The position numbers and the translations under genes were made by a program. A DNA stretch of 32,000 nt from Candidatus Paracaedimonas acanthamoebae (GTDB lineage Bacteria > Pseudomonadota > Alphaproteobacteria > Caedimonadales > Caedimonadaceae), in contig CP008937.1 in NCBI GenBank assembly GCA_000743035.1, positions 30,001-62,000 of the forward strand, in the 5' to 3' direction. Shown here one piece after another: positions 1-32,000 of this stretch. Position 1 is the stretch's first letter; every line of letters begins with the position of its first letter. The notes under the pieces are model-generated. The model had not been told where the DNA came from, made no database searches, and saw only the letters and a list, made by a program, of their open reading frames with translations.

Positions 1-603
1 ACAGCTATTAGTGCTCAACCCAAAAAAGTGATTGCGCATGAATTGGAAAAGTTCAAACAAACTCAACAACTCACCCCTCAACTGGTATTTAGGGATCCAT
101 GTATCCTTGACTTTATGGGATTGGGGACAAAATATTCAGAATTTGATTTGGAAAGCGCCATATTAGATCATATCACCGAATTCATCCAAGAACTGGGAAC
201 AGATTTTTGCTTTTTAGCTCGCCAAAAACGTATGGCTACAAAAAATAAAGACCGTTATTTAGACTTACTTTTCTTTCATAGGGGAATGCGCCGGTTGGTT
301 GCTATTGAACTCAAGATGGGAGACTTTGAGCCTGAGCATAAGGGACAGATGGAATGGTATTTACGTTGGTTGGATAAAAATGAACGTAAAGAAGGAGAAG
401 AAAAGCCCATAGGCATTATTTTATGTGCCAACAAGGACCAAGAAGATGTTGAGTATCTTGAACTAGATCAAACAGGGATCCATGTCGCTCAGTATTTGAC
501 CGAACTACCCCCTAAACAACTTTTAGAAGAGAAATTACATGCTGCTATTGCTTACGCTCGGCAGCAGCATGAATTTTTGAGCCTTGATTTAGATAAATCA
601 TGA
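1..603 (+). CDS. YhcG-like PD-(D/E)XK nuclease (DUF1016 family), C-terminal part; the 5' end lies left of the window
   Basis: The frame is open from base 1. Motifs DPCILDFMGL, GTDFCFLARQKRM, YLDLLFFHRGMRRLVAIELKMGDF (D...ELK nuclease core) and PIGIILCA are typical of YhcG/DUF1016. The stop overlaps the next start (ATGA at 600-603). Confidence 0.7.
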   Translation, partial: TAISAQPKKVIAHELEKFKQTQQLTPQLVFRDPCILDFMGLGTKYSEFDLESAILDHITEFIQELGTDFCFLARQKRMATKNKDRYLDLLFFHRGMRRLVAIELKMGDFEPEHKGQMEWYLRWLDKNERKEGEEKPIGIILCANKDQEDVEYLELDQTGIHVAQYLTELPPKQLLEEKLHAAIAYARQQHEFLSLDLDKS

Positions 604-3515
604 AATCTCGAATTCGTTGGTTGTTTCAAGAGGATCAACTTAACCTAATTAAAACAAAGAGTCGGAAAAATCAGCTCTACTTCGCTGTTCAGCTAAAATA
701 CTATGAAACGAATTTAATATTTTGTGAGGATGTTGCTTCTATTTCGACACATACTCTTTCCAAGGTTTCGAAAAAACTCGAGATATCCAGTAAGATTCAG
801 TCTTTGTCTTCCAAAACAAGCGCCACATATCGTCATGAAATTAGGACTTACTTTCAATCACATAAAATGAGTGATCGAGAAGAGACTCTTCTAGTCGATT
901 GGTTGTTGAAAGAGGTTTTTCCTAATGAATCTTTTAATATGGATCAGCTAAAAGAAAAAACCCTTCTTTTTATGAAAGCTCAAAAAATAGAAAGAATTAG
1001 TGATTCTTCTTTAGAAAGACTTCTTAAAAGTACTCGACATCAATATGAAGAGAACTTATTTAAAAACATAAGCATGAATCTTGATTTACAGACTAAAGCT
1101 TATTTAGATGGCCTTTTGTTTTTTACTCCTCAAAAGATATCTCGGCTTGCCTGGCTTCACAGATGGCCTGGTGGTGTGTCATTAGAAACCATCCAAAGAG
1201 AAGCGGAGAAATTACAATTTTTAAAACTTCTTGTTCTACCCGTTTCTCTCAATTCGATTCCTCAAAAAGATCTCCTTCGCCATTATCGTAATATATGTAC
1301 AAAATACCCTAGTGCTATCAAACAGATGCCTGAGGCCCATCGATATTTTTTCCTAGCAATATTTGCTTTTATCAAACAACGTCAAATTACAGATAATTTG
1401 TTAGAATTGCTCATTCGTTTAGTTAAAAGATGTTTAACTTCTGGGGAACGAAAACTGCGCAGAGAGTTGTCTCAAGTTATTGAAATCAAAAAAGGATGCT
1501 CAAAGAAAGTCTTGCTGAATACTTTGATTGCAACCATTCTCAATCACGAAAATGAAATTATTAAGGATGCCATTTATCCGATTATTCCCAAAGAACAACT
1601 TTTGAGCGAGCAAAATGGAGATGGAAAGAAAGTCGTATCTTATGAAGGTCTGCTCTATGATCGGGTGCGGAGATCTTATATCCATCATTATCGTCGAATG
1701 TTAGCTCCTGCCTTAGAACTTTTGGATTTTCATGCGAATAATATCAATGACCAACCAATCATTGAAGCTCTTCAATTAATAAAAAAATATTTGAAGGAGC
1801 AAAAACAATTTTATCCAGCTACAGAGAATATTCCTATTAATGGAGCCGTAAAAAGAAGTCATACAACTTTTATTATGGAAGATTCTGACGAAGAAGATCG
1901 TGTTAATCGAATTAATTATGAGATATCCGTTCTTATACATCTACGCGATAAACTCCGTGTTAAAGAGGTATGGGTTGCAAATGGATATCAATATCGCAAC
2001 CCAGAAGAAGATCTTCCTCAAGATTTTGAAGATAAACGAACCTATTACTACGGTCTTCTAAACAAACCGCAAGATGTTAAGCGCTTTCTTCGTCGCATTA
2101 AAAAAGATCTCAAAAAACAGCTTTTTTCTTTCAATAACAATTTACCAAAGAATAACACAGTCCAAATCTTAAAAAAGCCCCTTGGCCATCTTAAGGTTAC
2201 TCCTCTTAAACCACAACCTGCACCCTTTCAACTGGAATCTATTAAAAAAGAAGTTTTTAGAAGATGGCCAAATATAAGCCTGTTAGACATCCTCAAAGAA
2301 ACAGATTTATTTGTAAATTTTATAGACTCTTTTGTTCCCAGTGGACCTAAAGAAGGATTAGATAAAACGACCTTAAAAGAAAGATTGCTTCTTATTATTC
2401 TTGGATACGGAACAAATACAGGCTTAAAGAGTATGAGTTCTGGCAATGGAAATGTAACATACCAAGAGCTTCTTCACATTAAACTGCGTTACCTTGATCC
2501 TGATAATTTAAAGAATGCAATTCGAATGGTAGTTAATCAACTCTTGCAAGTACGTATGCCAGAGATATGGGAGTCCTGTACAACAGCCGTTGCCTCGGAT
2601 TCTACCCATTTTAAAGCCTCAGATCAAAATCTCATGAGTCAATGGCATCCACGCTATCATAAAACAGGCGTTATGATTTACTGGCATGTCGATACAAACT
2701 CTATTTGCATCTACTCGCAACTTAAAAGTTGTACGTCATCTGAAGTCTCTTCCATGATTGAAGGAGTTCTGCGTCATTCGACAGATATGGACGTTCAAAA
2801 AAACTATGTGGATAGCCATGGAGCAAGTGAAGTAGGTTTTGCGTTTTCTTATATTCTTGGCTTTGAGCTTCTGCCAAGATTTAAAAACATTTACAATCAG
2901 AAACTATATGTTTGTAACAAAGAGGATATAGATCAATATTCCCACATAAAGCCTATTTTACTACGAGCTATTAATTGGAGAGTCATCGAAGAACAATATG
3001 ACCAAATCATCAAATATGCAGTGGCCCTAAAATTAGGGATTGCTAGCGCTGAAGCTATTATGAAGAGATTTACACGTAATAATTTACAGCACCCTGTTTA
3101 CAAGGCTCTCAGTGAACTCGGGAAGGCTATTAAAACTATTTTTCTATGCCGTTATTTGATGTCTGAGCCTTTGCGCCGCGAGATTAATGAAGGGCTCAAT
3201 GTGGTAGAAAATTGGAATAGCATGAATGATTTCGTTTTCTATGGAAAAATAGGCGCTTTCAGAAGCAATAGACCAGAAGACTTGGAACTTTCAATGCTAT
3301 GCCTGCATTTATTGCAACTCAGTATGGTGTATATCAATACGATCATGCTTCAACAGGTCATTCAAGAGTCTAATTGGCTTTCCAAAATGAGCATAGAAGA
3401 CAAGAGAGCCGTTACACCGCTGCTGTCTGAGCACATCAATCCTTATGGCCTGTTCATTCTGAATTTGGCAGAACGTCTCCAACTGAATCATCCTCTCATT
3501 AGGAGGGCTGCTTAA
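600..3515 (+). CDS. tnpA: Tn3-family DDE transposase TnpA (971 aa)
   Basis: Size about 1000 aa. The N-terminus is DUF4158-like ([29 protein letters not shown]). Tn3-type core motifs are present: [60 protein letters not shown] and [26 protein letters not shown]. Confidence 0.9.
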
Positions 3516-3516
3516 G

Positions 3517-4221
3517 ATGAACAAAAGAACAAGCCCTCATAAAAAGGCATTACAAATTGCAAAATACTTCCGTCATGAAAACCCAGATTATAATTATTTA
3601 CGCGCTGTATTTCAAAAATTACGAGACAATTTAAACGTCAAAGTAACCACGACTCCTAAAAAACTCCCCTATGTTCCAACAGAGTCAGAACTTAAAAAGT
3701 ACTACGAAGTCATATGGCAGTCCAAAAATATGCAAGATATGATTATGATTAAAACACTCATGTATACAGGAATTCGAGTCAGTGAAATAATTCGCCTTAA
3801 AATTCAAGATGTTGACTTTGATCGATGTCAACTAAGAATTGTTGTAGGAAAAGGAAAAAAAGATCGAATAGTTCCGTTTCCGAAAAGTTTTCGGGAAACA
3901 TTGGCACTTCATGTTTCTAACACTAATAAAAACAATCAGTTATATCTGTTCGAGTCTACTTGGAAGAAACCCTATTCTGATAGGGGAGTCAGAAAAATGC
4001 TCGAGAAATATAGTAAAGCCGCTGGAATAGAGCACATAATTTCTCCGCATAAATTGCGGCATTTTTTATTTACTTGGTTAAAAAAACAGAATGTAGATGA
4101 CGCGCTTATTCAACCGTATTCTGGTCACGAAACTAGGCAATCCCTAGAGATTTACTCCAAACTTTCTCTATCAAAGGCTCAAGAAGAATATGATGATAAG
4201 ATTAAAAACTTCCCTGTTTAG
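3517..4221 (+). CDS. Tyrosine site-specific recombinase (TnpI/XerD-like), probable cointegrate resolvase of the Tn3-family element
   Basis: Catalytic-type motifs TGIRVSEI (Arg), HKLRHF (H-x-x-R) and [12 protein letters not shown] (His...Tyr). An AGGAGG RBS lies at about 3498-3503. The start is 1 nt after the tnpA stop. Confidence 0.85.
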
Positions 4222-4226
4222 CATCC

Positions 4227-4264
4227 AAAACTACACTTTTTTGCACGATCTTTAGCACTACCCC
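4227..4264 (-). repeat. Terminal inverted repeat (right end) of the Tn3-family transposon
   Basis: The reverse complement reads GGGGTAGTGCTAAAGATCGTGCAAAAAAGTGTAGTTTT. An outermost GGGG and a length of about 38 bp are the Tn3-family hallmark. The IS110-like coding remnant starts at 4265, immediately outside it. Confidence 0.55.
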
Positions 4265-4457
4265 TATTAAAGAATTTGCAGATCGACTCAAAAATCAAGG
4301 GAAGAAGCCTATGGTTATTGTAGGAGCAGCAATGCGTAAACTATTGCATATTGTTTTTGGCATTCTTAAAAAGCAGCAAGCTTTCCAAGCATAAAACTGC
4401 TCTCAAAAAGAATAGGAATTAAATAGAAAAAAGTTTGACCACTAACACAGTATCTGG
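4265..4457 (+). pseudogene. IS110-family transposase 3' remnant plus element end (copy A), truncated by the Tn3 element
   Basis: 4266-4394 translates to IKEFADRLKNQGKKPMVIVGAAMRKLLHIVFGILKKQQAFQA*, a typical IS110 C-terminus. It is followed by the end motif AACACAGTATC (about 4445-4455), which is shared with copies at 9830 and 11826. Confidence 0.6.
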
Positions 4458-4458
4458 C

Positions 4459-7122
4459 TTAATCCCTATAATAGTAGTCATTTCCTTTTAAGCTTGTATG
4501 ATTATATCGAAAATCTAATTCTCTGAGAGAATTATTACGTGCAAAGCTATCTCGAAGTGCTGCCCCCCCTGGCATTCCAATATTATTGAAGAAAAGAAGA
4601 ACTTTTGTAAGAGAACTATTGCATACAAGGCTTTCTGCAATTGCTATGGCTCCTTCTGAATCTATCTTATTAAAACGAAGATCTAACTCTGTAAGGGAAT
4701 TATTATGCTTAAGGCCTTCTGCAATTGCTATAATTCCTTGCAAATCTATACTATTATTACCAAGGTCTAACTCTGTAAGGGAGTTATTATGCTTAAGGCT
4801 TTCTGCAATTGCTATAGCTCCTTCTGAACCTATCTTATTAAAACGAAGATCTAACTCTGCAAGGGAGTTATTATGCTTAAGGCCTTCTGCAATTGCTATA
4901 GCTGCTTCTGATTCTAAGCCGCTGGAGTATAATAATATTTTAGTAAGCGCTTTATTAACTTTAAGAATCTTACCTAGGCAGGGCCCAATTTCTGATCCTA
5001 TATTGAGGGGTGGCCTCTCTAAAAAGGTTATAGAGTTATTATATGTGAAGGTATCTTCAAATAATTTTATAAACTTTTTAATATTATAAATTTTTGGAAA
5101 GCCAATATTATGGACTGAAGTATTATATTTTAAAGCTTTAAGAATTCTAAAAAATCCTTCTTCACCACCAAAGTTTTGGCGCTTCTCTAAATCTTGTCTT
5201 ATGTCTTTTAAAGAACATTTTGGATTGTGAAGTAACCTAGCAATTCCAGCTCCTCCTGGGATACCATTCACTCTCAAATAATGCGCGTATGCCTCATTTT
5301 CAGAGCATTCTACATGGTATCCAACTTCATAAAAGTATCCTAAAAGCAATTCATTAATGTAAGTAGTATTCTTGGTAGAAAATTTATTAAGGGGTAATTT
5401 TCGAAGTCTTGACCAGAACCTCATTATTTCTTTATCTTGGGCAGTGAATTCAGCATTAGGATAAAGATGGGCGAGTTTTACCTTGGCGGAATTACTTCCT
5501 CTGCTAGCTGCAGCTTCATAATAGGCCCTTGCTGCTTGTTGTAACTTTGGGCTGTCATAGCTTTGTTCACACAGGGTGCCTAATTGAAAGAAACCATCGT
5601 TGCTGCCTTGCAATGCCGCTCTTTGGCTCCAATAAAAAGCCCATTTTCTTTGCCACTCTTTCGAATGAGGCCGCCACTTAGAATTCTCCTCTTTTAGCCA
5701 TCCCTCATTCAAGTTTTCTAAATGAGGATGATAAATATGATTGGATACTTGAGTGTGATAGTATGTGAGCAACTCAAGAGTTACCCCAGGAACTTCTAAA
5801 TAATGTAAAAGGCCAAGGAAGGCTTGAGCTTTAGCATGCCCATAAAACGAAGCTTCTAGAAAATGCTCAAGAGCATTTTCAAAATCAACGCCTTTTAAAG
5901 TTCTTCCTGTAAGGTCTAGCATTCCCAGTCTGTGATGGGATTTAGCATAGATCTTTCGAGCAATATGACCCTCTTTTATATTTATGAAGATCCGGTTCCA
6001 TTTATGTAGAGTTGAAAAGCTTTCCGCTTTTTTTAATGCTTCTTCATACCAATCAAAAGCTTTATAAATATTTGCTTTTATTCCTTGATCACCTTTCTCA
6101 TAAAGCTTTCCTAAATGATATTGAGCTTTAAGATTAATAATATTAAAAGAAGCTTCTTCGTTTAAATTATTTGCGGCTTTTCTTAGTAATCCTTGTAATT
6201 GTTTAGGGTCAGAAGCTAGGTTATGTTTAAAAGCAAAATAAAGAGTATTTGGCTCATCTCTATTTTGAGCTAAGCTTTTCTTGGCGAGCATTAATTGGGT
6301 ATAGGCATCATTCTCAAAGCCTAGGAGCCTAAAAAGCTGGCTACAATAATAATGGAGGCGTAAAGCTTGATAATAAAGCTCTGAAGGGCTGATTTCTTCT
6401 TGAAAGAGAGGAAGAGGCTTTATAACTGTATTAAGAAGTAATGCTAGCTCGTCTACCTCTTCCATATCCTCGTCCAAAGATACTGTTGCTTCTCGGTCAT
6501 GAAGATGCCCAAGAATAAAGCTCTTCGCCTTACTTTCTAGGACTTTATATATTTGGTACCTTTCTTCTGTTACCTTAGAGCTTAAGCTCTCTTCTGCTCT
6601 TACTGGTGTTCTTTCAATCCTTTCTTGTCCTTTTAAATAAGTAACAATTTTTTTAAGTTCGTTAAGATTTTGAAGCTTTCTATCTGGATCAGTGTATTTA
6701 AGCTCAGTCCTTATAAGTTTGCGTTCTTCTGGGGGGAGCTTCCAATAAGTAAGCTTTAAATGAGGCTCTGTTAACCCTAATTTTTGTTCTTTATTGTTTA
6801 AATAGTCTTGGATAAGCCAAGCAAAATCTCTACTTTCCCTTCTTAAATTCTCAAGATCGTGACGATTTGTAAGATAATCTAAAATTGACCACCAAATCTC
6901 TGGGGGAAGAGTTTCAATAAACAGAGGCTCTTCTTGTTGCGTGGGATTAATACTTCTCAACTTTTTAGTAGGATCAAGGTCCATAGAGGAATTATTGAAT
7001 AAAAAGCTTCCTTTGTTGCTTTTCTCTTTTTCATCACACTGTATTGTGGCAGCAAGAGGATAAGCATTCAGTAAGCCTATGCATAAAAAATATAGGGTTG
7101 GGCGAATAAAATAGAAAAGCAT
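4459..7122 (-). CDS. F-box / Sel1-repeat / RNI-type leucine-rich-repeat protein (eukaryote-like effector candidate), 887 aa
   Basis: The N-terminus is hydrophobic. The F-box motif is LPPEIWWSILDYLTNRHDLENLRRESRDFAWLI. There are several Sel1-like units (AFDWYEEALKKA, AQAFLGLLHY, AARAYYEAAASRGSNSAKVKLAHLY). The C-terminus has 28-aa LRRs (NNSLTELDLRFNKIDSEGAIAIAESLKH). Confidence 0.85.
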   Translation of the reverse strand: MLFYFIRPTLYFLCIGLLNAYPLAATIQCDEKEKSNKGSFLFNNSSMDLDPTKKLRSINPTQQEEPLFIETLPPEIWWSILDYLTNRHDLENLRRESRDFAWLIQDYLNNKEQKLGLTEPHLKLTYWKLPPEERKLIRTELKYTDPDRKLQNLNELKKIVTYLKGQERIERTPVRAEESLSSKVTEERYQIYKVLESKAKSFILGHLHDREATVSLDEDMEEVDELALLLNTVIKPLPLFQEEISPSELYYQALRLHYYCSQLFRLLGFENDAYTQLMLAKKSLAQNRDEPNTLYFAFKHNLASDPKQLQGLLRKAANNLNEEASFNIINLKAQYHLGKLYEKGDQGIKANIYKAFDWYEEALKKAESFSTLHKWNRIFINIKEGHIARKIYAKSHHRLGMLDLTGRTLKGVDFENALEHFLEASFYGHAKAQAFLGLLHYLEVPGVTLELLTYYHTQVSNHIYHPHLENLNEGWLKEENSKWRPHSKEWQRKWAFYWSQRAALQGSNDGFFQLGTLCEQSYDSPKLQQAARAYYEAAASRGSNSAKVKLAHLYPNAEFTAQDKEIMRFWSRLRKLPLNKFSTKNTTYINELLLGYFYEVGYHVECSENEAYAHYLRVNGIPGGAGIARLLHNPKCSLKDIRQDLEKRQNFGGEEGFFRILKALKYNTSVHNIGFPKIYNIKKFIKLFEDTFTYNNSITFLERPPLNIGSEIGPCLGKILKVNKALTKILLYSSGLESEAAIAIAEGLKHNNSLAELDLRFNKIGSEGAIAIAESLKHNNSLTELDLGNNSIDLQGIIAIAEGLKHNNSLTELDLRFNKIDSEGAIAIAESLVCNSSLTKVLLFFNNIGMPGGAALRDSFARNNSLRELDFRYNHTSLKGNDYYYRD
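4590..4925. repeat. Tandem 84-bp (28-codon) repeats encoding the LRR units, with a 168-bp super-period
   Basis: TTCTGCAATTGCTAT recurs at 4633, 4717, 4801 and 4885, exactly 84 bp apart. The units are near-identical. Confidence 0.8.
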
Positions 7123-15309: not shown

Positions 15310-16341
15310 ATGGAAATAAAAGCATTAGGAATTGATCTTGGCAAGAACTGGTTTCATCTTCACGGGATTGATAAAAGAGGAAAGCCTGTGCTTCAGAAAA
15401 AAGTCAGTAGAGAAAAATTACCGATCGTTATCGCCAATCTTCCTGGTTGCTTAATTGGAATGGAAGCTTGTGCGGGCGCTCATTTTTGGGCTAGATGCTT
15501 TCAACAGATGGGGCATGAAGTCAAGCTCATAGCGCCTCAATTTGTTAAACCTTATGTAAAGAGCAATAAGAACGATCAAGCAGATGCAGCGGCTATATCT
15601 GAAGCTGTCACCCGCTCTCATATGAGATTTGTCCCTATAAAATCTTCTGCTCAACAAGAGATATTAGCTATCCATCGCGTTCGTGAGCGTCTTGTACGGG
15701 TAAAAACAGCTTTAACCAATGAGATTCGAGGGTTACTTTTAGAACAAGGAATTACAATTCCTCAGGGAGTCAGCAAGTTTGAACAATTTTTAGCAAATCT
15801 ACTAGATCCTGAAATTGAAGAACTCAGTCCTCTTTTTAAAGGCCTTTTAGGGGAACTCGTTGAAGAATTCAAGCTTGCTAAAGGAAGAGTAAAGAGACTT
15901 GAAGAACGTCTCCAGCGACTTGGGAAGGAAGACAAAGCCGTACAGCGACTAATGACGATTCCTGGAGTTGGCCCCATAGGAGCTTCTGCTCTTGTTGGAT
16001 CAATTGGAGATATTCGACAATTTAAAAATGGTAGAGAGTTATCTGCCTGGCTTGGGCTTGTGCCAAGGCAACATTCAACAGGAGGTAAACCTCGACTTTT
16101 AGGAATTAGTAAAAGAGGAGATTTATATTTACGAACACTTCTTATTCATGGAGCTCGGGCTGTTATAAGATGGATTAGCCAACGTGAAAAACCTGTATCT
16201 TCTCTGGAGAAATGGGTCTTGGATATTATTGAACGGCGAGGAATAAACCGAGCAATAGTTGCGCTCGCCAATAAAATAGGGCGAATGATTTGGGCTCTTC
16301 TTGCAAAAGAAGAAAACTATAGAATGCATGCAACTGTATAA
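15310..16341 (+). CDS. IS110-family (DEDD) transposase, 343 aa
   Basis: AAAGGAGG RBS. The N-terminus is ALGIDLGKNWFHLHGID. The C-terminal module reads RLMTIPGVGPIGASALVGSIGDIRQFKNGRELSAWLGLVPRQHSTGGKPRLLGISKRGDLYLRTLLIHGA. Confidence 0.9.
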   Translation: MEIKALGIDLGKNWFHLHGIDKRGKPVLQKKVSREKLPIVIANLPGCLIGMEACAGAHFWARCFQQMGHEVKLIAPQFVKPYVKSNKNDQADAAAISEAVTRSHMRFVPIKSSAQQEILAIHRVRERLVRVKTALTNEIRGLLLEQGITIPQGVSKFEQFLANLLDPEIEELSPLFKGLLGELVEEFKLAKGRVKRLEERLQRLGKEDKAVQRLMTIPGVGPIGASALVGSIGDIRQFKNGRELSAWLGLVPRQHSTGGKPRLLGISKRGDLYLRTLLIHGARAVIRWISQREKPVSSLEKWVLDIIERRGINRAIVALANKIGRMIWALLAKEENYRMHATV

Positions 16342-17029: not shown

Positions 17030-18487
17030 TCAACCTATTTCATCACCTTTAGAAGCTGCACGAGGTGTAATTGTAAATTCTAAGGGGGAGCCCTCTATAC
17101 TATTTCCAGCTGTTACTAATATCCCTCTTTCTGTATGAAACCGCGCTGTTAATAATCCACTGTTAAGCGTAGAGAAAATCGCCTTATTAGTTTCTTTAGT
17201 CTTGTAGTTAGCTTTTTCTTGTTCTTTAAGCGCATAATCAACATTATGCCTTGGTGTATCTTTAATGATACGAGGAGAATTTCTAAAAGTTGTGTAAGCT
17301 TGTTTATAAGGATGTCCTTGTGAGCGCCCATTACTAATAAAAACTATTCTTGGTCTTACAATGGTGTGAATCCACTCAGGATGGTTAGACTCATGGGTTG
17401 CGGAGCCATGATGAGCTGCAAGATAAACATCAGTTTTTAAAAAATTCTTTAATGTTTTTGTATGCAAAAAACGGCGATAATTATCATAAATTCTTTTATT
17501 CGTCTGTCCTGTTGCATCTCCTGTAAGCATTATAGAGAAGCCTGTAGGAATATTAACAATTTTTAGGACTAAGCTATCAGTATTAGGATCATCAGTAATC
17601 CTAAATGTTGAAGTCTGGGAAGACTCTAAGGTTAAAGGAGCACCTGAAAAGTGGGTCGGATTAACAGATAAAAGATAGATCTTAAAAGCTTGTCTGAAGC
17701 TAAAAGCTGCTTCTAATTCTTCAAAGGAATGACCTAAATTATCTTGTGGGGATGGCGTTTGTAAATGGCTGATAGGGAAAGAATATGCTTGAGGGGCAAG
17801 CTTATTTTCTGCTTGTAATTGCTTCGATAAACTTAGGACTTCTTCCCATAAATTAAGATCAAGGGCTCCAAAGCTGAGTGCTGGAATATAAAGCTTAAAT
17901 CCTTTGCAATTAAGTTGATAGTTAAGCCATTCTTCATCAAGAGCGTATTCTTCAGGCATTCCTCCAAGAACAAGATTTTCAATGGTATATTTATGCCGCC
18001 TTACTAGATCAATAAGGCAATTTGTGTGGTCAATATCTCCATGGGTGAGTAACACAGTTTTTATTTTTTGGCTAGCAGCAGGCCCTTTGAAAAGGATTTC
18101 ACTAATATCACGAATACATTCTTCTTTAAATGTTTTAGATGGTATTTTAGTGCTTTCACTCTCTTTAAGCTTAGCCAAGAGCTCAGAAGGAGATTCAATA
18201 GAGGATTTTGGCTTACTTGGTTTTTTTTTGGGCTTCTTTGCGGCAAGAGATAATGTCGCCTCTCTTACAAGAGCTTCTCTAATTATACTCTCATTTTTGA
18301 TCGAAGTTGTTCCAAGGTCAACAATCATTACTTCATCCTGAAATTCAACAGTTACACAGTTTCCTTGACCCACAGGATGAACCCTTACAACACATTCATC
18401 CTCTAAAATACTAGAGCTAGCTTGTGTTTTTATTGAGATGCTTAAGCATAAGCAATAAGCTATAATAAAAGTCTTAAATATTTTCAT
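17030..18487 (-). CDS. Secreted metallo-beta-lactamase-fold hydrolase, ComEC C-terminal-domain type (485 aa)
   Basis: Signal-like N-terminus. VHPVGQGNCVTVEF...MIVDLGT, the metal motif LLTHGDIDHTN (H-x-D-x-DH) and YLAAHHGSATHESN are present. A Lys/Ser-rich insert (AAKKPKKKPSKPKSS) follows the first strand pair. Confidence 0.7.
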   Translation of the reverse strand: MKIFKTFIIAYCLCLSISIKTQASSSILEDECVVRVHPVGQGNCVTVEFQDEVMIVDLGTTSIKNESIIREALVREATLSLAAKKPKKKPSKPKSSIESPSELLAKLKESESTKIPSKTFKEECIRDISEILFKGPAASQKIKTVLLTHGDIDHTNCLIDLVRRHKYTIENLVLGGMPEEYALDEEWLNYQLNCKGFKLYIPALSFGALDLNLWEEVLSLSKQLQAENKLAPQAYSFPISHLQTPSPQDNLGHSFEELEAAFSFRQAFKIYLLSVNPTHFSGAPLTLESSQTSTFRITDDPNTDSLVLKIVNIPTGFSIMLTGDATGQTNKRIYDNYRRFLHTKTLKNFLKTDVYLAAHHGSATHESNHPEWIHTIVRPRIVFISNGRSQGHPYKQAYTTFRNSPRIIKDTPRHNVDYALKEQEKANYKTKETNKAIFSTLNSGLLTARFHTERGILVTAGNSIEGSPLEFTITPRAASKGDEIG

Positions 18488-18548
18488 GGAGTCCCTAATT
18501 TATGTGTATGAAAGATATATAAGAGCTATTTTATTATATTCAATAAAC

Positions 18549-19889
18549 CTAATTTATTATTTTGGAAAATCTAGCATAAAGCTTTTGATGAAGAGGCTTA
18601 GGCATAGAAGAAAATTCTTCAGGGAAAAAGGTTTCCATAAGTTCATAAGCTTTTAATGATCCAAGTTTAGAACCTTTTACGAGAGCAGAGCGTAACTTAT
18701 GACTATAAGGAATTTCTAGTGTTTGTTTAAAAAGCTCGATATATAAAACTGCTAAATAATCCCACGCCTTTGCATAATTTAAGTTTCCTGCCAACTGAAA
18801 AAGCGAAATGGCTTCTTGGATTTCTTCCTGGGAGATTTGAGTTCCTAAACTCTCTCTTGCCTGCCGGGACAGCAATATATTGCCAACTTTTAATGTGCCC
18901 AGGTTTATATACCCCTCAGCGATTCCCTTTTGACCTGCTTTTAAAAAGTAATTGGCAGCCTCTTTTAAATTTCCGTTATTGGCATATAGTAATCCTATAT
19001 CAATAAAGGCAGGCATAAAGCCTGAAGTATTAGCTTTCTCCAAGTATTCAAGCTTTTTCTCGAAACTGTCAGATAACGTGGAAAGTTTTATGTAAGCTGG
19101 AGCATATCCTTCCCTTGAAATTTCTTCATACTCCTGAAAAGTTGGGTCCTCAAATCCCTTCATTTTTTCTCGAACTGTAAGAGCCGCAAATTTATTCCTA
19201 GCATCATGGCCATTGATATGGATGTCATACCCAAGTTTAGGATTAATTTTTAAAGCTTTAGTCTTGTAAGAATCCTCTGTGTAGTTTCTCCCAAGAATAT
19301 AGCAAACGTCAGGATTATTTTTAACTTCTTGCATTTCATTTAAAGCTTTATAATAAGCTTCTTTAAGGCCTTGAGGTTTTTCTCCTTCAGGTGAGCTAAA
19401 GTAAATGATGTCAAGTGTATAAGCTAAGTAATATAGCCCTAAAGTATGATGAAAATTTGCAGACACCTCCAAGCATCGCAGCATGTCAGGCTTTAAGAGC
19501 ATAAACTCTGTGTAGGGCGAGTCAAGGAGCTCATGAACATCTCTGGGGTAAAAAAGATGCCCACCTACAGTTTCTTTAGATGCCTTTTGGAAAGGCCAAG
19601 ATTGAGCCTTAAGTAGTTTAGCCACTTGCTCCCACTCTTGAGGAGATAAAGTTAACTTCATAAAGCTTTTATAAGCATTATTAATTATTCTAGAAGATCC
19701 TTTACGATGACCTTGAGTAATTTGATCTTCAATTAATTTCAATTGTAAAGGAAGCGTAAAACTTGAGGGCGTTTCATTCTTGATTATTTTAGGGGGTGTA
19801 TAGTAATTTTCTTTATCTATTACTTCTGTTGTAAAAGCTTTTTGAAGTGAAATCACTCCAAGAATAAATATAATAATGACATTATTCAT
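18549..19889 (-). CDS. Sel1-like (TPR-type) repeat protein with signal-like N-terminus (446 aa)
   Basis: AAGGAAGG RBS. Sel1-like units include AANYFLKAGQKGIAEGYINLGTL and AISLFQLAGNLNYAKAWDYLAVLY. Confidence 0.75.
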   Translation of the reverse strand: MNNVIIIFILGVISLQKAFTTEVIDKENYYTPPKIIKNETPSSFTLPLQLKLIEDQITQGHRKGSSRIINNAYKSFMKLTLSPQEWEQVAKLLKAQSWPFQKASKETVGGHLFYPRDVHELLDSPYTEFMLLKPDMLRCLEVSANFHHTLGLYYLAYTLDIIYFSSPEGEKPQGLKEAYYKALNEMQEVKNNPDVCYILGRNYTEDSYKTKALKINPKLGYDIHINGHDARNKFAALTVREKMKGFEDPTFQEYEEISREGYAPAYIKLSTLSDSFEKKLEYLEKANTSGFMPAFIDIGLLYANNGNLKEAANYFLKAGQKGIAEGYINLGTLKVGNILLSRQARESLGTQISQEEIQEAISLFQLAGNLNYAKAWDYLAVLYIELFKQTLEIPYSHKLRSALVKGSKLGSLKAYELMETFFPEEFSSMPKPLHQKLYARFSKIIN

Positions 19890-24437: not shown

Positions 24438-24965
24438 ATGATTTATAAAAAACATCTTTTAACTGCTACATTTATTTCAAGTGTACTATTACCTTCATTT
24501 GTATGTAATGCGTCACATGCCACGATAGAAGATCTACCGCATGAATTGATGAATGAGATATTTAGAGGATTAACTCCAAATGACATAGAAAATACGCAAT
24601 TGATCTCTCAACATTTTAAAGCGGCAAGCGATAAATTTTGTTTTAATGACCATAAAGTAAATAAGTTTTGTAAGTTAAGTGTAACGGGGCTTTGGACATC
24701 CCCTAAGATTGCAATAGAGGTTGCAAGAAAAGTAATATTATTGACAGATAACGATGTGGCAACAAGGCATGGTGAAGATCTTTTAATTGCCAAGGCAAAA
24801 GCTCATGCTTTTTTAGCTTACAGGGGTATAAATAAAGATAATAACATTGGTGAATTTGATAAAATTTATGGAAATAGTATTCCTGGTAGCGCTATATCAT
24901 CCGAGTTAAAAACTTTCTCAATATTTCTTAGGAATGTCGCTGGAAAAATGATTCAAGGCAAGTGA
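24438..24965 (+). CDS. F-box-like protein with signal-like N-terminus (175 aa)
   Basis: AAGGAG RBS. The F-box-like motif is IEDLPHELMNEIFRGLTPNDIENTQLISQHFKAASDKF. Confidence 0.65.
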   Translation: MIYKKHLLTATFISSVLLPSFVCNASHATIEDLPHELMNEIFRGLTPNDIENTQLISQHFKAASDKFCFNDHKVNKFCKLSVTGLWTSPKIAIEVARKVILLTDNDVATRHGEDLLIAKAKAHAFLAYRGINKDNNIGEFDKIYGNSIPGSAISSELKTFSIFLRNVAGKMIQGK

Positions 24966-28082: not shown

Positions 28083-28587
28083 ATTATTACTCTCTATAAA
28101 ACCCGGCAAGATGAGGAACGGGATAACTTAGTAATTAGGAATGGAGAGAAAATGCTCTTTCTTTATAAGATGAGCGATCAACCGATAATAAAATATCGGT
28201 CACGAAAACTTTCCAATCCCTACATCAAAGACGAATGGGTAACAGGCCCTGTGAACGTTGAAACGCCATTGCCTACTTATGTTTGGCTAGGTAATGCCGA
28301 GAACAACGAAGTGTGGCGTGAAATAAAAGCTGAGGTAAAGGCAGAGCGAGGAGAGAATTGTGAAATGTGCAGGAGTAAGAAGCAACTCGAACTTCATCAC
28401 ATTAAAGCTCGACGTTACGGAGGGCAAAACATTAAAGAAAATGCACAACTACTCTGCAAGCTCTGCCATCTCAAGACATCGTCTTATGGTGATCGAAGCC
28501 GATTACAATGATGGAAAGCCGTGTGCGGTGAAAGTCGCATGCACGGTTTGGGAAGAGGGATAGGGAAACACACACAGCGTGAGCTAT
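28083..28587 (+). mobile_element. Group II intron 3' fragment (inner intron): end of the IEP with HNH domain, domains V and VI
   Basis: The ORF 28152-28511 ends with CEMCRSKKQLELHHIKARRYGGQNIKENAQLLCKLCH (HNH). The domain V hairpin is at 28516-28549. The 5' part is missing; the fragment abuts the IS3 right end. Confidence 0.65.
28516..28549 (+). ncRNA. Group II intron domain V (inner intron)
   Basis: AAGCCGTGTGCGGTGAAAGTCGCATGCACGGTTT is 34 nt, with a GAAA tetraloop and an AGC triad, close to the canonical GAGCCGUAUGCG..GAAA..CGCACGUACGGUUC. Confidence 0.65.
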
Positions 28588-29605
28588 GGAGGTGCGCCCC
28601 GTCCCTACTTCATTCTCTCCTCTTCTGGCGAATATGGCTCTTGATGGACTTGAAAACCTTCTCTCTATGTTATTTAAACGAAAGAGAGTTAAAGGAAAAT
28701 TGTTTGCTCCGGGAGTTAACTATATTCGCTATGCGGATGACTTCATTATTACTGGTAAAACGCAAGAAATACTAAAGGATGAGGTCAAACCTCTTGTTGA
28801 GGAATTTCTGAAAGAAAGAGGGCTAGAACTCTCTCAAGAAAAAACAAGAATTACGCATATTGATAAAGGCTTCGACTTTTTAGGCCAGAATCTAAGGCGG
28901 TATGAAGGTAAATTACTTATTAAGCCCTCGAAGATGAATACAAAAGCCTTTCTAGATAAGGTTAAGAAGTTGATTAAAGCTCATAAGGCATCAACACAAA
29001 AAGATCTGATAGCTATTCTCAATCCTCTCTTACGAGGATGGGCGAACTATCATCAACATGTAGTTGCTAAAAGAGCGTTCTCAAGAGCAAATTATGAGAT
29101 TTGGAAAAAGCTATGGCAGTGGGCTAAACGTCGGCATCCAAGCAAAGGACGCAACTGGGTTAAGAAAAGATATTTTGTTAACTCAGGAAGTCGCAATTGG
29201 GTATTTTCTTGCATAAGTAAGAACCGCACGGGGAATCCCACACTTGCTAAGCTAATAAATTTAGCGGACACAAGAATTACAAGGCACGTTAAAATCAAAG
29301 CTCAAGCAAACCCTTTTGATCCAGAATGGGAGTCTTATTTTGATAAGCGTCTACATCTCAAAATGGAATCTCACTTCAAAGGAAAAGAAAAACTGCTTAA
29401 GCTTTGGTCAAATCAAAAAGGGCGTTGTCCTCAATGCCAACAAAAGCTCTCCTTAGAGAGAAAATGGCATATCCATCACATTCAACCAAAATGTAAGGGA
29501 GGAAAGGATACAATGTCTAACTTAGCGATGCTTCATCCTAATTGCCATAGGCAAGTTCATAACCAGCTAGAGCCGCGTCTTTTGAAAGGTGTTCAAGAGG
29601 CTTGA
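28586..29605 (+). pseudogene. Group II intron-encoded reverse transcriptase/maturase/HNH, 5'-truncated (starts in RT domain 4)
   Basis: SPLLANMALDGLE (RT4), NYIRYADDFIITG (RT5, YADD), LNPLLRGWANYHQHVVAKRAF (X/maturase) and CPQCQQKL...HIHHIQPKCKGGKDTMSNLAMLHPNCHRQVH (HNH) are present. RT domains 0-3 are absent. Confidence 0.8.
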
Positions 29606-29637
29606 GCCGAATGCGGGGAAACTCGCCTGTTCGGTTC
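29604..29637 (+). ncRNA. Group II intron domain V (outer intron)
   Basis: GAGCCGAATGCGGGGAAACTCGCCTGTTCGGTTC is 34 nt and near-canonical. Domain VI-like sequence follows, up to about 29673. Confidence 0.7.
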
Positions 29638-29673
29638 TTAGGGGAGGGAACGGCAGTAATGCCATTCTCTTAC

Positions 29674-29867
29674 CCGACGCAATTGCAAGATCAAATGAAG
29701 CCAAAGAGCTTGGTATTAAAATGGGCGAGCCTTATTTTAAATATATTAGTGAAAATAACCTTTTTTTAATAAGTTCTAATATAGAGTGCATTACAGAGTT
29801 ATTATTAAGGGGAGATAATACTTCGATGTATTTTAGTGTCAATTTTTGTTCCATATTTCTTAATTAA
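29674..29867 (+). pseudogene. umuC: Y-family DNA polymerase (UmuC-like) fragment; 3' exon of the outer intron
   Basis: DAIARSNEAKELGIKMGEPYFKYISENNLFLISSNIE parallels UmuC residues about 36-75 (CVIARNAEAKALGVKMGDPWFK...VVCFSSNYE). It degenerates and stops at 29867. Confidence 0.6.
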
Positions 29868-29887
29868 ATTTTTAAGGCAATCTTAGA

Positions 29888-30403
29888 ATGCTCTCTCAAT
29901 TTTTGAGTTACCTTGTAGATGACCTTAAAGAAAAATTTAAAGAAGTTGATGCTTGTACCTCTTATCATGCCCTAGTGCCGGATGATGTTCTCTCAAAAAG
30001 AACAGCTTTATATGTTAACCTACCTGCCATTAAAAGAGCAGAAATATTATCTGACGGCAATAAGAAGATCACGGCACAAATAATAGTTTATATTAGAATT
30101 ATAACGACTTCCTACGAAGCTAAAAATATAAGAGGAGCAGATATTGCTGCAGATCTTCTTGGTTATATTTCTACTAAAAGATGGGCAGTGCCCTATGCTT
30201 TTTCTGCTCAGAATGTTCAAGCTGATGATTGCTATGGTTTTAACAAAGATAATATCCAAATTATCTTAGGAGACAACAGTCATTGGACTCCAAGTATTTT
30301 AGCACAGGTACAACGTCTGTATGATGTAAGTCATGGGGAAGGTGATGTATCTGTATGGATGGTAAGTTGGGAACAACCATTACAATTTAATCAAGTTGAG
30401 TAA
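29888..30403 (+). CDS. Hypothetical phage-tail-module protein (171 aa), possibly tail-completion-like
   Basis: Only position supports this call: it lies immediately upstream of gpV with an 7-nt gap to the next gene. No motif recognised with confidence. Confidence 0.35.
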   Translation: MLSQFLSYLVDDLKEKFKEVDACTSYHALVPDDVLSKRTALYVNLPAIKRAEILSDGNKKITAQIIVYIRIITTSYEAKNIRGADIAADLLGYISTKRWAVPYAFSAQNVQADDCYGFNKDNIQIILGDNSHWTPSILAQVQRLYDVSHGEGDVSVWMVSWEQPLQFNQVE

Positions 30404-30410
30404 TTAACTA

Positions 30411-31019
30411 ATGGATAACAATTTTTTACTTATTGAACATGATCGTATGCTTAGTAATATGGTGCGCATTGGATTAGTCGAAGAGGTAAATTATAAAAAA
30501 GCTCGAGCTAAGATAAAGCTAGAGGATGATTTTGCAACATATTGGTTGCCATGGTTGACACGCAAAGCCGGTGCTTCTTATGAGTATTGGGCTTTAGAAA
30601 AGGAGGAACAAGTTGTTGTTGTTTTTCCTTCAGGAGACTTAAATCAAGGAATCATCATAGGGTCTATTTGTAAAGGGGATCCTGATAATAAATTAATTCC
30701 CAATTCAACTAGCTCTAAAGAAGATCAAGCTTCAAAACTACAGACTTTGCATAAGGTAGTTTATAAAGATGAGTCATCTTTTTCTTACGACTGTAATAAA
30801 GACGCGCATAATTTTTTTCTTGAAATAAGAGATAATAGTAATAAAGCGGCCATAGAAATCAATGCAGATCCGCAAAAAGGAATTTCTATCAATATAAAGG
30901 GTAGCGGGGAACTTAATTTTATAAGTGAGGGCGAGATAAATATTAAAAGCTCTCAAGCTATAAAAATTAAAGGTAAATCCCTGGATATTGAAGTAGATGA
31001 AGTAGTTCAAGTGAGATGA
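30411..31019 (+). CDS. Phage baseplate assembly protein V (gpV, spike/hub-type), 202 aa
   Basis: MVRIGLVEEVNYKKARAKIKLEDDFATYWLPWLTRKAGASYEYWALEKEEQVVVVFPSGDLNQGIIIGSI follows the P2 gpV pattern (iG.V..vd......V..g.l.T.WLPW...RAG....W..P..GEQV.v..PsGd...g...gs). Confidence 0.8.
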   Translation: MDNNFLLIEHDRMLSNMVRIGLVEEVNYKKARAKIKLEDDFATYWLPWLTRKAGASYEYWALEKEEQVVVVFPSGDLNQGIIIGSICKGDPDNKLIPNSTSSKEDQASKLQTLHKVVYKDESSFSYDCNKDAHNFFLEIRDNSNKAAIEINADPQKGISINIKGSGELNFISEGEINIKSSQAIKIKGKSLDIEVDEVVQVR

Positions 31020-31032
31020 GGAAAATAATATA

Positions 31033-31377
31033 ATGGCAGGGATGGATGCAGAAACAGGGAAGCTTATTGAAGGACTTGATCATTTAAAGCAATCAATTTT
31101 GGATATTCTTAAAACACCTTTAGGTTCACGTGTTATGCGTCGTGATTATGGGTCTAGAATTTTCTCAATGTTAGATCAGCCAATTAATCAGGAGCTTATT
31201 TTACAATTGCAAGCATCTGTTGCAGAAGCCTTGACTACTTATGAACCACGTTTACGTCTTTCCAGGGTTAAAGTAGACAGCCGAGGACCTGGGGAAATTT
31301 TAATAAAAATAGAAGGCTATCATGCCGTTGATGGCCAGCCCATAAATTTAAGTGAACGAATTGAAATGATGAATTAA
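31033..31377 (+). CDS. GPW/gp25-family baseplate wedge protein, 114 aa
   Basis: ILKTPLGSRVMRRDYGSRIFSMLDQPIN plus the size match the gpW/gp25 lysozyme-like fold family. Confidence 0.85.
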   Translation: MAGMDAETGKLIEGLDHLKQSILDILKTPLGSRVMRRDYGSRIFSMLDQPINQELILQLQASVAEALTTYEPRLRLSRVKVDSRGPGEILIKIEGYHAVDGQPINLSERIEMMN

Positions 31378-31414
31378 TAACTGCTGTAATCGGGCGTACA
31401 AGGGGGAGGAAGTT

Positions 31415-32000
31415 TTGGGGTTTAAAACTGATTTTGAGACACTAGACTTTGAGACTATTGTCCAAGAAATGAAGCAATCATTAATTAAAAAATGGAAAAG
31501 CATCAATGTTCATGTTGATGAACTTCTCGAAAGTGATCCTGCGGTTAAAATTATTGAGATTGCAGCATATCAAGAATTGTATGCACGTCAAAGTATTAAA
31601 GAATCAATAAAAAAAGTTTTTGTGCAAAGTGCTCAAGATAAAGATTTAGAAAATCTTGCAACTCTATTTAATCTCAAACGACTTAAGAATGAAGATGACA
31701 ATAAGTTTCGAGAAAGGATTATGTCTTCGCGCTATTTAGAGCAATCTGCAGGAACTAAAGCAGCTTATGAGCAATGTGTTCTTAGTCATTCCTATGTTCA
31801 AGATGCAAAAGCACTGTGTAATGAAGATTCAAAAATAGAAATAATTGTTTTGTTGCAAGTACATGAAGAACAATTATTCTCCACACTTGAAAAGGAGATA
31901 GGAAGGCATATTGAAGAAAGGCGTGTCATTACTGATTATGTAGTTCTAAAACCTGCGTATATCCATTCTTATCAACTTTCTGCAGAATTATACCTTCGAC
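31415..32000 (+). CDS. Baseplate J-like protein (gpJ), N-terminal part; continues beyond the window
   Basis: The frame is open to the window end. A TTG start at 31415 sits about 5 nt after GGGGGAGGA. DFETLDFETIVQEMKQSL and ESDPAVKIIEIAAYQELYARQSIKES...DLENLATLFNLKRL...DDNKFRERI parallel the P2 gpJ N-terminus. Confidence 0.75.
   Translation, partial: MGFKTDFETLDFETIVQEMKQSLIKKWKSINVHVDELLESDPAVKIIEIAAYQELYARQSIKESIKKVFVQSAQDKDLENLATLFNLKRLKNEDDNKFRERIMSSRYLEQSAGTKAAYEQCVLSHSYVQDAKALCNEDSKIEIIVLLQVHEEQLFSTLEKEIGRHIEERRVITDYVVLKPAYIHSYQLSAELYLR

What the first reader, a model, noticed from the sequence alone, without database searches (positions are those of the whole stretch)
29888..32000. P2/R-tailocin-like baseplate module starting abruptly in a likely intracellular symbiont genome
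The genes are tightly spaced in the order unknown(171 aa)-gpV-gpW-gpJ. The gaps are 7, 13 and about 37 nt. This is the order found in P2 and in R-type pyocin/tailocin clusters. Nothing resembling capsid, terminase, portal or lysis genes lies upstream; instead there is a umuC relic and IS debris. The ORFs are intact, unlike almost everything in the preceding 10 kb. Their composition looks like the rest of the window, suggesting long residence and maintenance by selection. In a genome otherwise devoted to eukaryote-directed effectors, a headless contractile-tail cluster could be a tailocin or an extracellular contractile injection system rather than a dying prophage.
Basis: partly seen in the sequence, partly recalled or inferred. 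Interest (0 to 1): 0.65.

Follow-up and report, generated by a model that had tools for sequence, protein, structure and literature searches.

The report
Headless phage-tail gene cluster, left end
The last 2 kb of the window hold four intact genes for the cap and baseplate of a P2-type contractile phage tail, with no head genes upstream, in what is probably a plasmid of an amoeba endosymbiont; it is most likely the start of a headless tail-like particle (tailocin-like) cluster, but the rest lies beyond the window and could not be read.

Summary
ORF1 (171 aa), gpV, gpW and gpJ are intact, co-oriented and spaced 7, 13 and 37 nt apart. The "unknown" ORF1 is now identified as a homologue of the R2 pyocin collar PA0615, a tail-terminator-fold cap (profile E=9e-13; Foldseek top hit 6u5f_A, TM 0.61). 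The order collar-V-W-J therefore matches PA0615-PA0618. The same order also occurs in complete phages, where the collar gene nearly always follows head-tail joining and head genes. Those genes are absent from the 30 kb upstream here.

The window's collar falls in a clade (NJ bootstrap 153/200) whose nine members with known context all lie in clusters with no head genes in view. Five of the nine sit next to an AAA+ ATPase. V, W and J, however, resemble phage homologues at least as closely as those of the headless clusters.

The four genes show purifying selection against a 77%-identical metagenomic relative (dN/dS 0.09-0.21). The full-length J of the source is 287 aa.

The source is probably a 148-kb replicon of Candidatus Paracaedimonas acanthamoebae. 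It is masked in every collection, so sheath, tube, ATPase and head genes downstream could not be checked. Verdict: probably a tailocin-like cluster (about 0.55). Prophage relic and rearranged prophage remain live alternatives. An Afp/PVC-type eCIS or T6SS-iv is not supported.

The parts
29679..29840 (+). UmuC (Y-family polymerase) N-terminal relic. This is context, not part of the module. It marks the left boundary and begins right after a group II intron 3' end (29602-29678).
   Evidence: tblastn against plasmids: 688 records, annotated as Y-family DNA polymerase. Rfam RF00029 at 29602-29678, 62.7 bits.
29841..29887 (+). Short non-coding leader (47 nt) between the umuC relic and the collar start codon. 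There is no convincing promoter. Homology to relative L001 starts at 29884.
   Evidence: Sequence. The promoter scan is no better than shuffles. blastn against L001.
29888..30403 (+). ORF1, 171 aa: collar / tail-terminator-fold cap protein, homologue of R2 pyocin PA0615. It belongs to the insertion-bearing subfamily.
   Evidence: Family profile against PDB: 6u5f_A 'Collar PA0615', E=9e-13. AF2 model pLDDT 87.7. Foldseek top hit 6u5f_A, TM 0.61, followed by phage tail terminators. Leave-out HMM: 105 bits against the subfamily, 14 bits against phage-type collars.
30411..31019 (+). gpV, 202 aa: P2-type baseplate central spike (N-terminal OB fold plus a C-terminal repetitive region).
   Evidence: PF04717 6.4e-12. 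TIGR01644 phage_P2_V 1e-14. PDB 3qr8 (P2 gpV) 1.5e-10 and 4s37, deposited as 'Phage baseplate protein' (from memory this is the R-pyocin spike PA0616; not checked), 5.2e-7.
31033..31377 (+). gpW, 114 aa: gp25-like sheath initiator / baseplate wedge subunit.
   Evidence: PF04965 1.2e-18. phrog_43 4.5e-40. 628 homologues; the nearest outside its own lineage are 55-60% identical.
31415..32000 (+). gpJ N-terminal 195 codons (TTG start, strong GGGGGAGG ribosome-binding site). The complete protein in the source record is 287 aa.
   Evidence: PF04865. The full-length protein P0132, 287 aa, comes from the same 148,131-bp contig. It aligns over 89-93% of its length to phage J proteins.

Best explanation
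This is the left end of a headless, P2-type contractile tail gene cluster. It would make an R-type tailocin-like or phage-tail-like particle. It sits on a roughly 148-kb replicon, probably a plasmid, of the amoeba endosymbiont Candidatus Paracaedimonas acanthamoebae.

Shown:
- The four genes encode the distal cap (collar, the PA0615 homologue), the central spike (gpV), the sheath initiator (gpW) and a wedge subunit (gpJ).
- They are intact, tightly spaced and have evolved under purifying selection.
- No head or neck genes precede them.
- The collar belongs to a clade seen only in clusters without head genes in view.

Inferred:
- The cluster continues with I, fibre, sheath, tube, chaperone, tape measure, U, X and D, possibly with an AAA+ ATPase, as in the relatives L096, L034 and L099.
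- Mechanism: the baseplate nucleates tube and sheath polymerisation, and the collar hexamer caps the distal end in place of a head. Receptor binding then triggers sheath contraction, which drives the gpV spike through a target envelope.
- The target is unknown. It could be co-resident bacteria in the amoeba or a host membrane.
For: - Gene identities.
- ORF1 is a collar. The profile hit to 6u5f_A 'Collar PA0615' has E=9e-13. The AF2 model has pLDDT 87.7, and the Foldseek top hit is the pyocin R2 collar with TM 0.61/0.62.
- No head, neck or other tail genes occur in the 30 kb upstream.
- In relatives with phage-type collars and upstream context, about 38 of 40 have Z/FII and then head genes directly upstream. 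Mu-head phages have a gpS-like gene there.
- The window and its relative L001 lack this. L001 has at least 76 nt of non-coding sequence upstream of the collar gene.
- Collar clade placement: every collar from a headless context scores 47-73 bits against the window and L001 collars, while every phage collar scores 40 bits or less. NJ bootstrap is 153/200. The leave-out HMM gives 105 against 14 bits.
- Contexts of that clade: L096 and L034 are complete tail clusters with 8-10 kb of non-phage genes upstream. L099 ends in housekeeping genes. L099, L101, L102, L103 and L105 carry a WHD+AAA ATPase next to the collar.
- dN/dS is 0.09-0.21 with dS 0.7-1.3 against L001.
- The source J is full length at 287 aa.
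- GC3 is host-like.
- The published genome reports only 19 'phage genes' in total (PMC5751055). That fits a tail-only cluster better than a full prophage.
Against: - Nothing downstream of gpJ could be read. The source contig is masked or absent in all collections.
- V, W and J score as high or higher against complete-phage homologues (Mano, WO, P2, L004) than against the headless clusters. The module is therefore mosaic, and the argument rests on one short, divergent protein.
- The view of several headless contexts is short (L025, L101, L102, L105, L106).
- The collar starts only 47 nt after a umuC relic in a heavily rearranged region. The left edge could be a recent deletion that removed upstream genes and the native promoter. 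No convincing promoter was found.
- In a third relative (ENA), J stops at 204 aa. This hints at decay in that lineage.
- An obligate intracellular bacterium has no obvious need for a bacteriocin.
Confidence: 0.55

Rival explanations
1. This is a prophage relic, a 'WO-like island' type. An ancestral temperate phage with a P2-type tail was cut by IS, intron or deletion events. Only a baseplate or partial tail module survives. It no longer builds a particle and is on its way to loss.
For: - The left flank is a rearrangement hotspot. It holds two group II intron 3' ends, truncated intron-encoded proteins, IS110 and IS3 elements and a umuC stub ending 47 nt before the collar ATG.
- V, W and J are closest to phage proteins.
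- Single-module relics flanked by IS elements are well documented in intracellular bacteria (PMC9203015).
- An ENA relative has J truncated at 204 aa.
- No clear promoter was found.
Against: - All four ORFs, including the 287-aa J, are intact with homologue-like lengths.
- dN/dS is 0.09-0.21 over a dS of about 1.
- GC3 is ameliorated to host values.
- The collar-first, head-less start may be shared with the 77%-identical relative L001.
- The collar falls in the headless-cluster clade, not among phage collars.
Confidence: 0.25
2. This is a complete but rearranged prophage. The head and packaging genes exist elsewhere on the replicon, downstream of the tail genes or in inverted modules as in some WO variants. 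The 'abrupt start' is then only a module boundary.
For: - Every distant relative with a phage-type collar is part of a full phage.
- Module order varies among WO-type prophages (PMC9203015).
- The contig is 148 kb, and only 32 kb of it was visible.
Against: - In about 38 of 40 phage relatives the collar gene immediately follows, and is often overlapped by, the head-tail joining gene. That gene is absent here.
- The collar clade is headless.
- Only 19 phage genes were counted in the whole genome.
Confidence: 0.12
3. This is an Afp/PVC-type extracellular contractile injection system or a T6SS-iv, as in Amoebophilus, directed at the eukaryotic host.
For: - The host is an amoeba symbiont rich in eukaryote-like effectors. 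An LRR/Sel1 protein and an F-box protein are in the window.
- Relatives in the collar clade carry an Afp15-like AAA+ ATPase beside the cap gene.
- The cap fold is shared with AlgoCIS, PVC and Anabaena caps, at lower scores.
Against: - The spike is a 202-aa P2 gpV (TIGR01644), not a fused VgrG-like Afp8.
- The best structural and sequence match of the cap is the pyocin collar. The PVC terminator reaches only TM 0.38.
- The order is collar-V-W-J, not tube/sheath-first.
- No ATPase is present in the window.
- The nearest W, V and J homologues are phage proteins.
Confidence: 0.05

Closest known systems
R-type pyocin R2 of Pseudomonas aeruginosa (PA0615-PA0628)
   Same: - The first four genes are in the same order: collar (PA0615), spike V, sheath initiator W and wedge J. 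The order PA0615-PA0618 is recalled from memory; only the PA0615 match (and a match to PDB 4s37, which I take to be PA0616) was tested here.
- ORF1 is a sequence-profile and fold homologue of PA0615.
- gpV matches PDB 4s37.
- There are no head genes upstream.
   Different: - The collar carries an insertion of about 41 residues and belongs to a different clade. PA0615 scores 21 bits or less pairwise.
- No PrtN/PrtR-type regulators or holin are seen upstream.
- The rest of the cluster is unseen.
- The host is an obligate intracellular alphaproteobacterium and the locus is probably plasmid-borne.
Headless P2-like clusters found here in metagenomes (L096, L034/L025/L106, L099, L101, L103, L105, L102)
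   Same: - They share the collar clade.
- L096, L034, L025 and L106 have a collar-first layout followed by V and W.
- No head genes are in view.
   Different: - Only 21-30% collar identity.
- Their J proteins are more distant from the window's J than phage J proteins are.
- Many have a duplicated J, a small post-V gene (p119) and an AAA+ ATPase. None of these is seen in the window.
Temperate phages with lambda-like or Mu-like heads and P2-type tails (Wolbachia phage WO, Achromobacter phage Mano, Vibrio VHML, Logan contig L004)
   Same: - They have the collar-V-W-J-I order.
- W is 50-56% identical, V 21-35% and J 27-34%.
   Different: - Their collar gene follows FII/Z or gpS-like genes and head genes.
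- Their collars lack the full insertion and score 40 bits or less.
- WO has a PAAR gene between V and W, which is absent here.
WO-like islands and tail-only modules of intracellular bacteria (Bordenstein & Bordenstein 2022, PMC9203015)
   Same: A single phage structural module in an obligate intracellular bacterium, flanked by mobile elements. The paper discusses such modules as possible domesticated bacteriocins.
   Different: - Different host order (Holosporales, on a plasmid-sized replicon).
- No closer to WO than to other phages.
- The collar clade links it to non-phage clusters.

Membership tests
R-type (P2-like) tailocin | P2-type baseplate genes V, W and J, contiguous and co-oriented | tested here: met
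   Pfam, PHROG and NCBIfam hits plus PDB 3qr8 and 4s37. Gaps of 7, 13 and 37 nt.
R-type (P2-like) tailocin | Collar or cap protein (PA0615-like) in place of a head-tail connector | tested here: met
   Profile E=9e-13 to 6u5f_A. Foldseek top hit is the pyocin R2 collar, TM 0.61.
R-type (P2-like) tailocin | No capsid, portal, terminase or head-tail joining genes in the cluster | tested here: inconclusive
   None in the 30 kb upstream. The downstream side lies outside the window and could not be retrieved.
R-type (P2-like) tailocin | Complete set of sheath, tube, tape measure, U, X, D and fibre genes | not testable with these tools
   The window ends inside gpJ. The source contig is masked. Only the full-length J (287 aa) could be recovered.
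R-type (P2-like) tailocin | Lysis cassette or dedicated regulators for release | tested here: inconclusive
   No holin, endolysin or regulator was found upstream. These genes could lie downstream.
Afp/PVC-type eCIS (core set of Chen et al. 2019, PMC6899500) | VgrG-like fused spike (Afp8) | tested here: not met
   The spike is 202 aa and matches only PF04717 and TIGR01644 phage_P2_V.
Afp/PVC-type eCIS (core set of Chen et al. 2019, PMC6899500) | Afp16-type terminator cap | tested here: not met
   There is no Pfam hit. The fold is in the terminator superfamily, but the PVC terminator 6j0f reaches only TM 0.38 against 0.61 for the pyocin collar.
Afp/PVC-type eCIS (core set of Chen et al. 2019, PMC6899500) | Afp15-type AAA+ ATPase in the cluster | tested here: inconclusive
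   There is none in the window. It is present next to the collar in 5 of 9 clade relatives. Downstream is unseen.
Temperate phage with lambda- or Mu-like head and P2-type tail (WO/Mano/VHML type) | Head-tail joining gene (Z/FII or gpS-like) directly upstream of the collar gene, with head genes beyond | tested here: not met
   tblastn and Pfam find none in the window. It is present in about 38 of 40 phage relatives and in Mu-head phages.
Temperate phage with lambda- or Mu-like head and P2-type tail (WO/Mano/VHML type) | Phage-type collar (without the 41-column insertion) | tested here: not met
   Leave-out HMM gives 14 bits against the phage-type model and 105 bits against the insertion type. 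NJ clade bootstrap 153/200.
Insertion-type collar clade of headless P2-like clusters (defined here) | Collar clusters with the clade, and the collar gene is not preceded by head or neck genes | tested here: met
   for clade placement. for the window context.

The most novel reading that the evidence does not exclude
The cluster is a P2-derived contractile injection system intermediate between R-tailocins and eCIS. It would have separate gpV and gpD, a pyocin-like but insertion-bearing collar and an Afp15-like AAA+ ATPase. It would be carried on a plasmid of an obligate intracellular amoeba symbiont in the Caedimonadaceae, the family of the Paramecium 'killer' symbionts. It would act inside or from the host cell against co-resident bacteria or host membranes, rather than as a classical bacteriocin.
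Probability: 0.2. Interest if true: 0.75.

Novelty: new member of a known kind. Interest (0 to 1): 0.5.

Why it matters
Phage-tail-derived machines in obligate intracellular bacteria are rare. Where they have been studied, as with the T6SS-iv of Amoebophilus, they mediate host interaction. A maintained, plasmid-borne tail-only cluster in a Holosporales amoeba symbiont would add a second, independently derived example from a P2-type lineage. It would also give a concrete candidate for competition or host manipulation inside the amoeba 'melting pot'.

The collar analysis also exposes a group of headless P2-like clusters, several with AAA+ ATPases. I did not find this group described in the literature I could search, and it blurs the R-tailocin/eCIS divide. 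If the downstream genes are broken or heads are present, the finding is an ordinary prophage remnant.

Tried and rejected
Attempts to extend the contig all failed:
- Exact look-ups of ORF1, V, W and the full-length J found nothing on record.
- Two genome-contig scans found nothing: the J N-terminus and the J C-terminal 92 aa recovered from P0132.
- A metagenome scan with the J alignment found nothing.
- A viral scan with W found nothing.
- Megablast of window 1-25000 against plasmids gave no match.
- The source appears to be masked everywhere.

Other dead ends:
- The supplements of the genome paper are not held.
- tblastn of ORF1 against phages gave no match.
- phmmer of ORF1 against PDB gave only chance hits.
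- Pfam on five collar homologues found nothing.
- Single-sequence AF2 of ORF1 was useless (pLDDT 38). It succeeded only with the 15-sequence alignment A7.
- The promoter and terminator scan was no better than shuffles.

Ideas rejected:
- That the 41-residue collar insertion is by itself diagnostic of headless clusters. Mu-head phage collars partly fill it (31-35 of 41 columns in L108 and L115). The clade, not the insertion, is the marker.
- That the short C-terminus of the window's collar is special. P0141 and P0151 are equally short.
- That the module is particularly close to phage WO. It is no closer to WO than to Mano, P2 or phiRSP.
Full report
**1. What is there**

The last 2.1 kb of the window carry four co-oriented ORFs on the + strand:
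- ORF1, 29888-30403, 171 aa.
- gpV, 30411-31019, 202 aa.
- gpW, 31033-31377, 114 aa.
- gpJ, starting at TTG 31415 behind a GGGGGAGG ribosome-binding site and running off the window.

Pfam gives Phage_base_V (6.4e-12), GPW_gp25 (1.2e-18) and Baseplate_J (2.2e-7). PHROGs give baseplate families at 2e-21, 4.5e-40 and 2e-23. ORF1 matches only phrog_1072, which has no known function. NCBIfam places V in TIGR01644 phage_P2_V. In the PDB, V matches P2 gpV (3qr8) and 4s37, deposited as 'Phage baseplate protein' (from memory the R-pyocin spike PA0616; not checked).

**2. Source**

All window proteins are masked in the protein and contig collections. The look-ups still show that they sit on a 148,131-bp contig. 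The IS110 transposase at 15310-16338 occurs on four contigs, the longest 1,722,347 bp. It shares a 90% cluster with IM40_11170, a plasmid gene of Candidatus Paracaedimonas acanthamoebae on a 169,123-bp plasmid.

This fits the published genome of 'Ca. Caedibacter acanthamoebae': 2.18 Mb, five replicons, four plasmids, GC 37.9% and 19 'phage genes' (PMC5751055). I infer that the window lies on one of the plasmids of this Holosporales amoeba endosymbiont. This is an inference, not a direct match.

**3. Surroundings**

The window is rich in mobile elements:
- A Tn3 transposase with an integrase (600-4221).
- IS110 copies, an IS3 orfB and HTH transposase fragments.

It also encodes eukaryote-like proteins, namely an LRR/Sel1 protein and an F-box protein.

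Immediately left of the module lie two group II intron 3' ends (28514-28613 and 29602-29678) with truncated intron-encoded proteins. A UmuC N-terminal relic (29679-29840) ends 47 nt before the ORF1 start codon.

Two tests looked for other phage genes. tblastn used head, neck and tail proteins from a complete related phage (L004), from phage WO, from Mano and from headless clusters. Pfam was run on 27 of the upstream ORFs. Neither found any head, neck, lysis, sheath, tube or ATPase gene upstream.

The module's GC (0.33-0.38) and GC3 (0.21-0.25) match resident genes, not the IS or intron genes.

**4. ORF1 is the collar**

An exhaustive phmmer search found only 20 homologues at E<=1e-3 among 1.84 billion representatives. 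A profile built from these plus synteny-derived homologues hits exactly one PDB sequence, 6u5f_A 'Collar PA0615' of pyocin R2, at E=9e-13.

An AlphaFold model built with a 15-sequence alignment has pLDDT 87.7. Its best Foldseek match is the same pyocin collar (TM 0.61/0.62). Next come phage tail terminators (lambda gpU, Mu, siphophage R4C). The diffocin collar, monocin cap and eCIS caps score lower.

The order collar-V-W-J therefore matches PA0615-PA0618 of the R2 pyocin locus; that locus order is from memory, and only the match to PA0615 itself was tested here.

**5. The same order is also normal for phages**

The nearest W homologues outside the window's own lineage are 45-60% identical. They lie in complete phages with this layout: terS-terL-portal-capsid-FII-Z-collar-V-W-J-I-fibre-sheath-tube-chaperone-tape measure-U-X-D (L004; WO; Mano).

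Among 87 loci fetched with a W alignment, about 38 of the 40 with a recognisable collar and upstream context have Z/FII and head genes directly upstream. One of the two exceptions, L026, has an upstream module that by ORF sizes looks Mu-like but was not scanned. The other, L067, has only 2.2 kb upstream in view. Viral contigs with Mu-like heads have a gpS-like gene directly before the collar. The window lacks any such gene.

**6. Close relatives**

Only two close relatives exist in the collections.

L001 is a 1,986-bp JGI contig with the same four genes at 77% nucleotide identity. Homology starts 4 nt before the collar ATG. The 109 nt upstream are unrelated to the window. They carry stop codons in all frames, leaving at least 76 nt non-coding.

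Between the window and L001, dN/dS is 0.21 for the collar, 0.12 for V, 0.09 for W and 0.15 for J, at dS 0.7-1.3. This shows long-term purifying selection.

The second relative is an ENA contig with W at 81% and J at 63% identity. Its J gene stops at 204 aa inside the contig. This may be decay or an assembly error.

The source's own J is 287 aa and aligns over about 90% of its length to phage J proteins. At least four genes are therefore intact.

**7. The collar clade**

The window's collar belongs to a subfamily with about 41 extra aligned columns between the RW and VW.V.W.Q motifs. An HMM built without the window and L001 scores the window's collar at 105 bits. An HMM of phage-type collars scores it at 14 bits.

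In pairwise comparisons, every collar from a headless context scores 47-73 bits against the window or L001. Every Mu-head or lambda-head phage collar, and PA0615, scores 40 bits or less. An NJ tree puts the window and L001 inside a clade with these collars and excludes all phage and pyocin collars. Bootstrap support is 153/200.

Nine clade members have known context:
- L096: 10 kb of BioY, cysS and Fic genes upstream, then collar-V-W-J'-J-I-fibre-sheath-tube-chaperone-tape measure (308 aa)-U-X-D.
- L034, L025 and L106: collar-V-p119-W-sheath-tube and onward. L034 lies in a 3.5-Mb contig with 8 kb of non-phage genes upstream.
- L099: V-W-J...U-X-D-AAA-collar-p119, followed by CN hydrolase and AddAB genes.
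- L101 and L105: D-AAA-collar.
- L102: a collar::Kelch fusion, then V, then AAA.
- L103: U-X-D...collar...AAA.

None shows head genes. Five show a WHD+AAA ATPase of the classical Cdc48/FtsH-like clade, which is the eCIS hallmark.

Three caveats apply:
- Several of these views are short.
- Mu-head phage collars partly share the insertion.
- The window's V, W and J score as well or better against phage proteins than against these clusters.

**8. Interpretation**

The best reading (about 0.55) is the left end of a headless P2-type tail cluster, tailocin-like and possibly carrying an ATPase.

A relic module of the 'WO-like island' type is the main rival (about 0.25). The rearranged left flank, the lack of a promoter signal and the truncated J in one relative support it. 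The concept is described in PMC9203015.

A rearranged complete prophage is less likely (about 0.12).

An Afp/PVC-type eCIS or T6SS-iv fails the tests on spike type, cap family and gene order, using the core set from PMC6899500. I put it at about 0.05.

**9. Novelty**

The genes are in a public genome and are annotated generically. I found no paper that discusses them. Tail-only modules in intracellular bacteria have been noted before.

I rate this a new member of a known kind, with moderate interest. The decisive check is simple: read the downstream 15-20 kb of the same replicon. The more novel possibility is a P2-derived, ATPase-bearing injection system on a symbiont plasmid. The evidence does not exclude it.

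Noticed in passing
window 28152-29678: There are two group II intron 3' ends (RF00029 at 28514-28613 and 29602-29678), each preceded by a truncated intron-encoded protein. The first has only the HNH domain (119 aa). The second has an RT C-terminus, maturase and HNH (339 aa). The second intron abuts a UmuC relic, as if the intron had homed into umuC.
   Followed up: partly
window 29679-29840: A UmuC/Y-family polymerase N-terminal fragment of about 54 codons. Short stretches are 90-95% identical to plasmid umuC genes in 18 records. It is too short for Pfam to detect.
   Followed up: yes
window 28-4221: A YhcG-like PDDEXK nuclease, a Tn3-family transposase (971 aa) and a tyrosine recombinase (234 aa) lie in tandem. 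This looks like an intact Tn3-type element.
   Followed up: no
window 4459-7122 and 24438-24965: Eukaryote-like proteins: an 887-aa LRR plus Sel1-repeat protein and a 175-aa F-box protein. These are typical effector candidates of amoeba symbionts.
   Followed up: no
window 17030-19889: Two adjacent minus-strand genes, a 485-aa metallo-beta-lactamase-fold protein and a 446-aa protein with no Pfam hit, have relatives at 90% identity or more on a 3.3-kb Logan contig. A close relative of this organism is therefore present in a public sequencing run.
   Followed up: no
P0139, P0149, P0156; L102 1027-2901: In some relatives the collar domain is fused to a C-terminal Kelch beta-propeller, giving proteins of about 600 aa. 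In L102 this fusion sits next to a V gene and an AAA+ ATPase. It suggests a decorated cap.
   Followed up: partly
L099 8066-10966; L101 437-3156; L105 about 2070-4648; L103 3109-10357: Metagenomic P2-like tail clusters have separate V and D genes, short tape measures (308-381 aa) and a WHD+AAA ATPase next to the collar gene. They show no head genes in view. I did not find this group described in the literature searched.
   Followed up: partly
ENA sample ERZ22666135, 1098-bp contig (P0004, P0133): In the third member of the window's lineage, gpJ ends at 204 aa against 287 aa in the source, with 88 nt of contig left. This could be pseudogenisation or an assembly error. No DNA was available.
   Followed up: partly
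L096 6200-9629: Directly upstream of a headless cluster lie two Fic-domain genes and a 338-aa protein of unknown function. A 372-nt AT-rich spacer then precedes the collar gene. These are possible cargo or effector genes.
   Followed up: no
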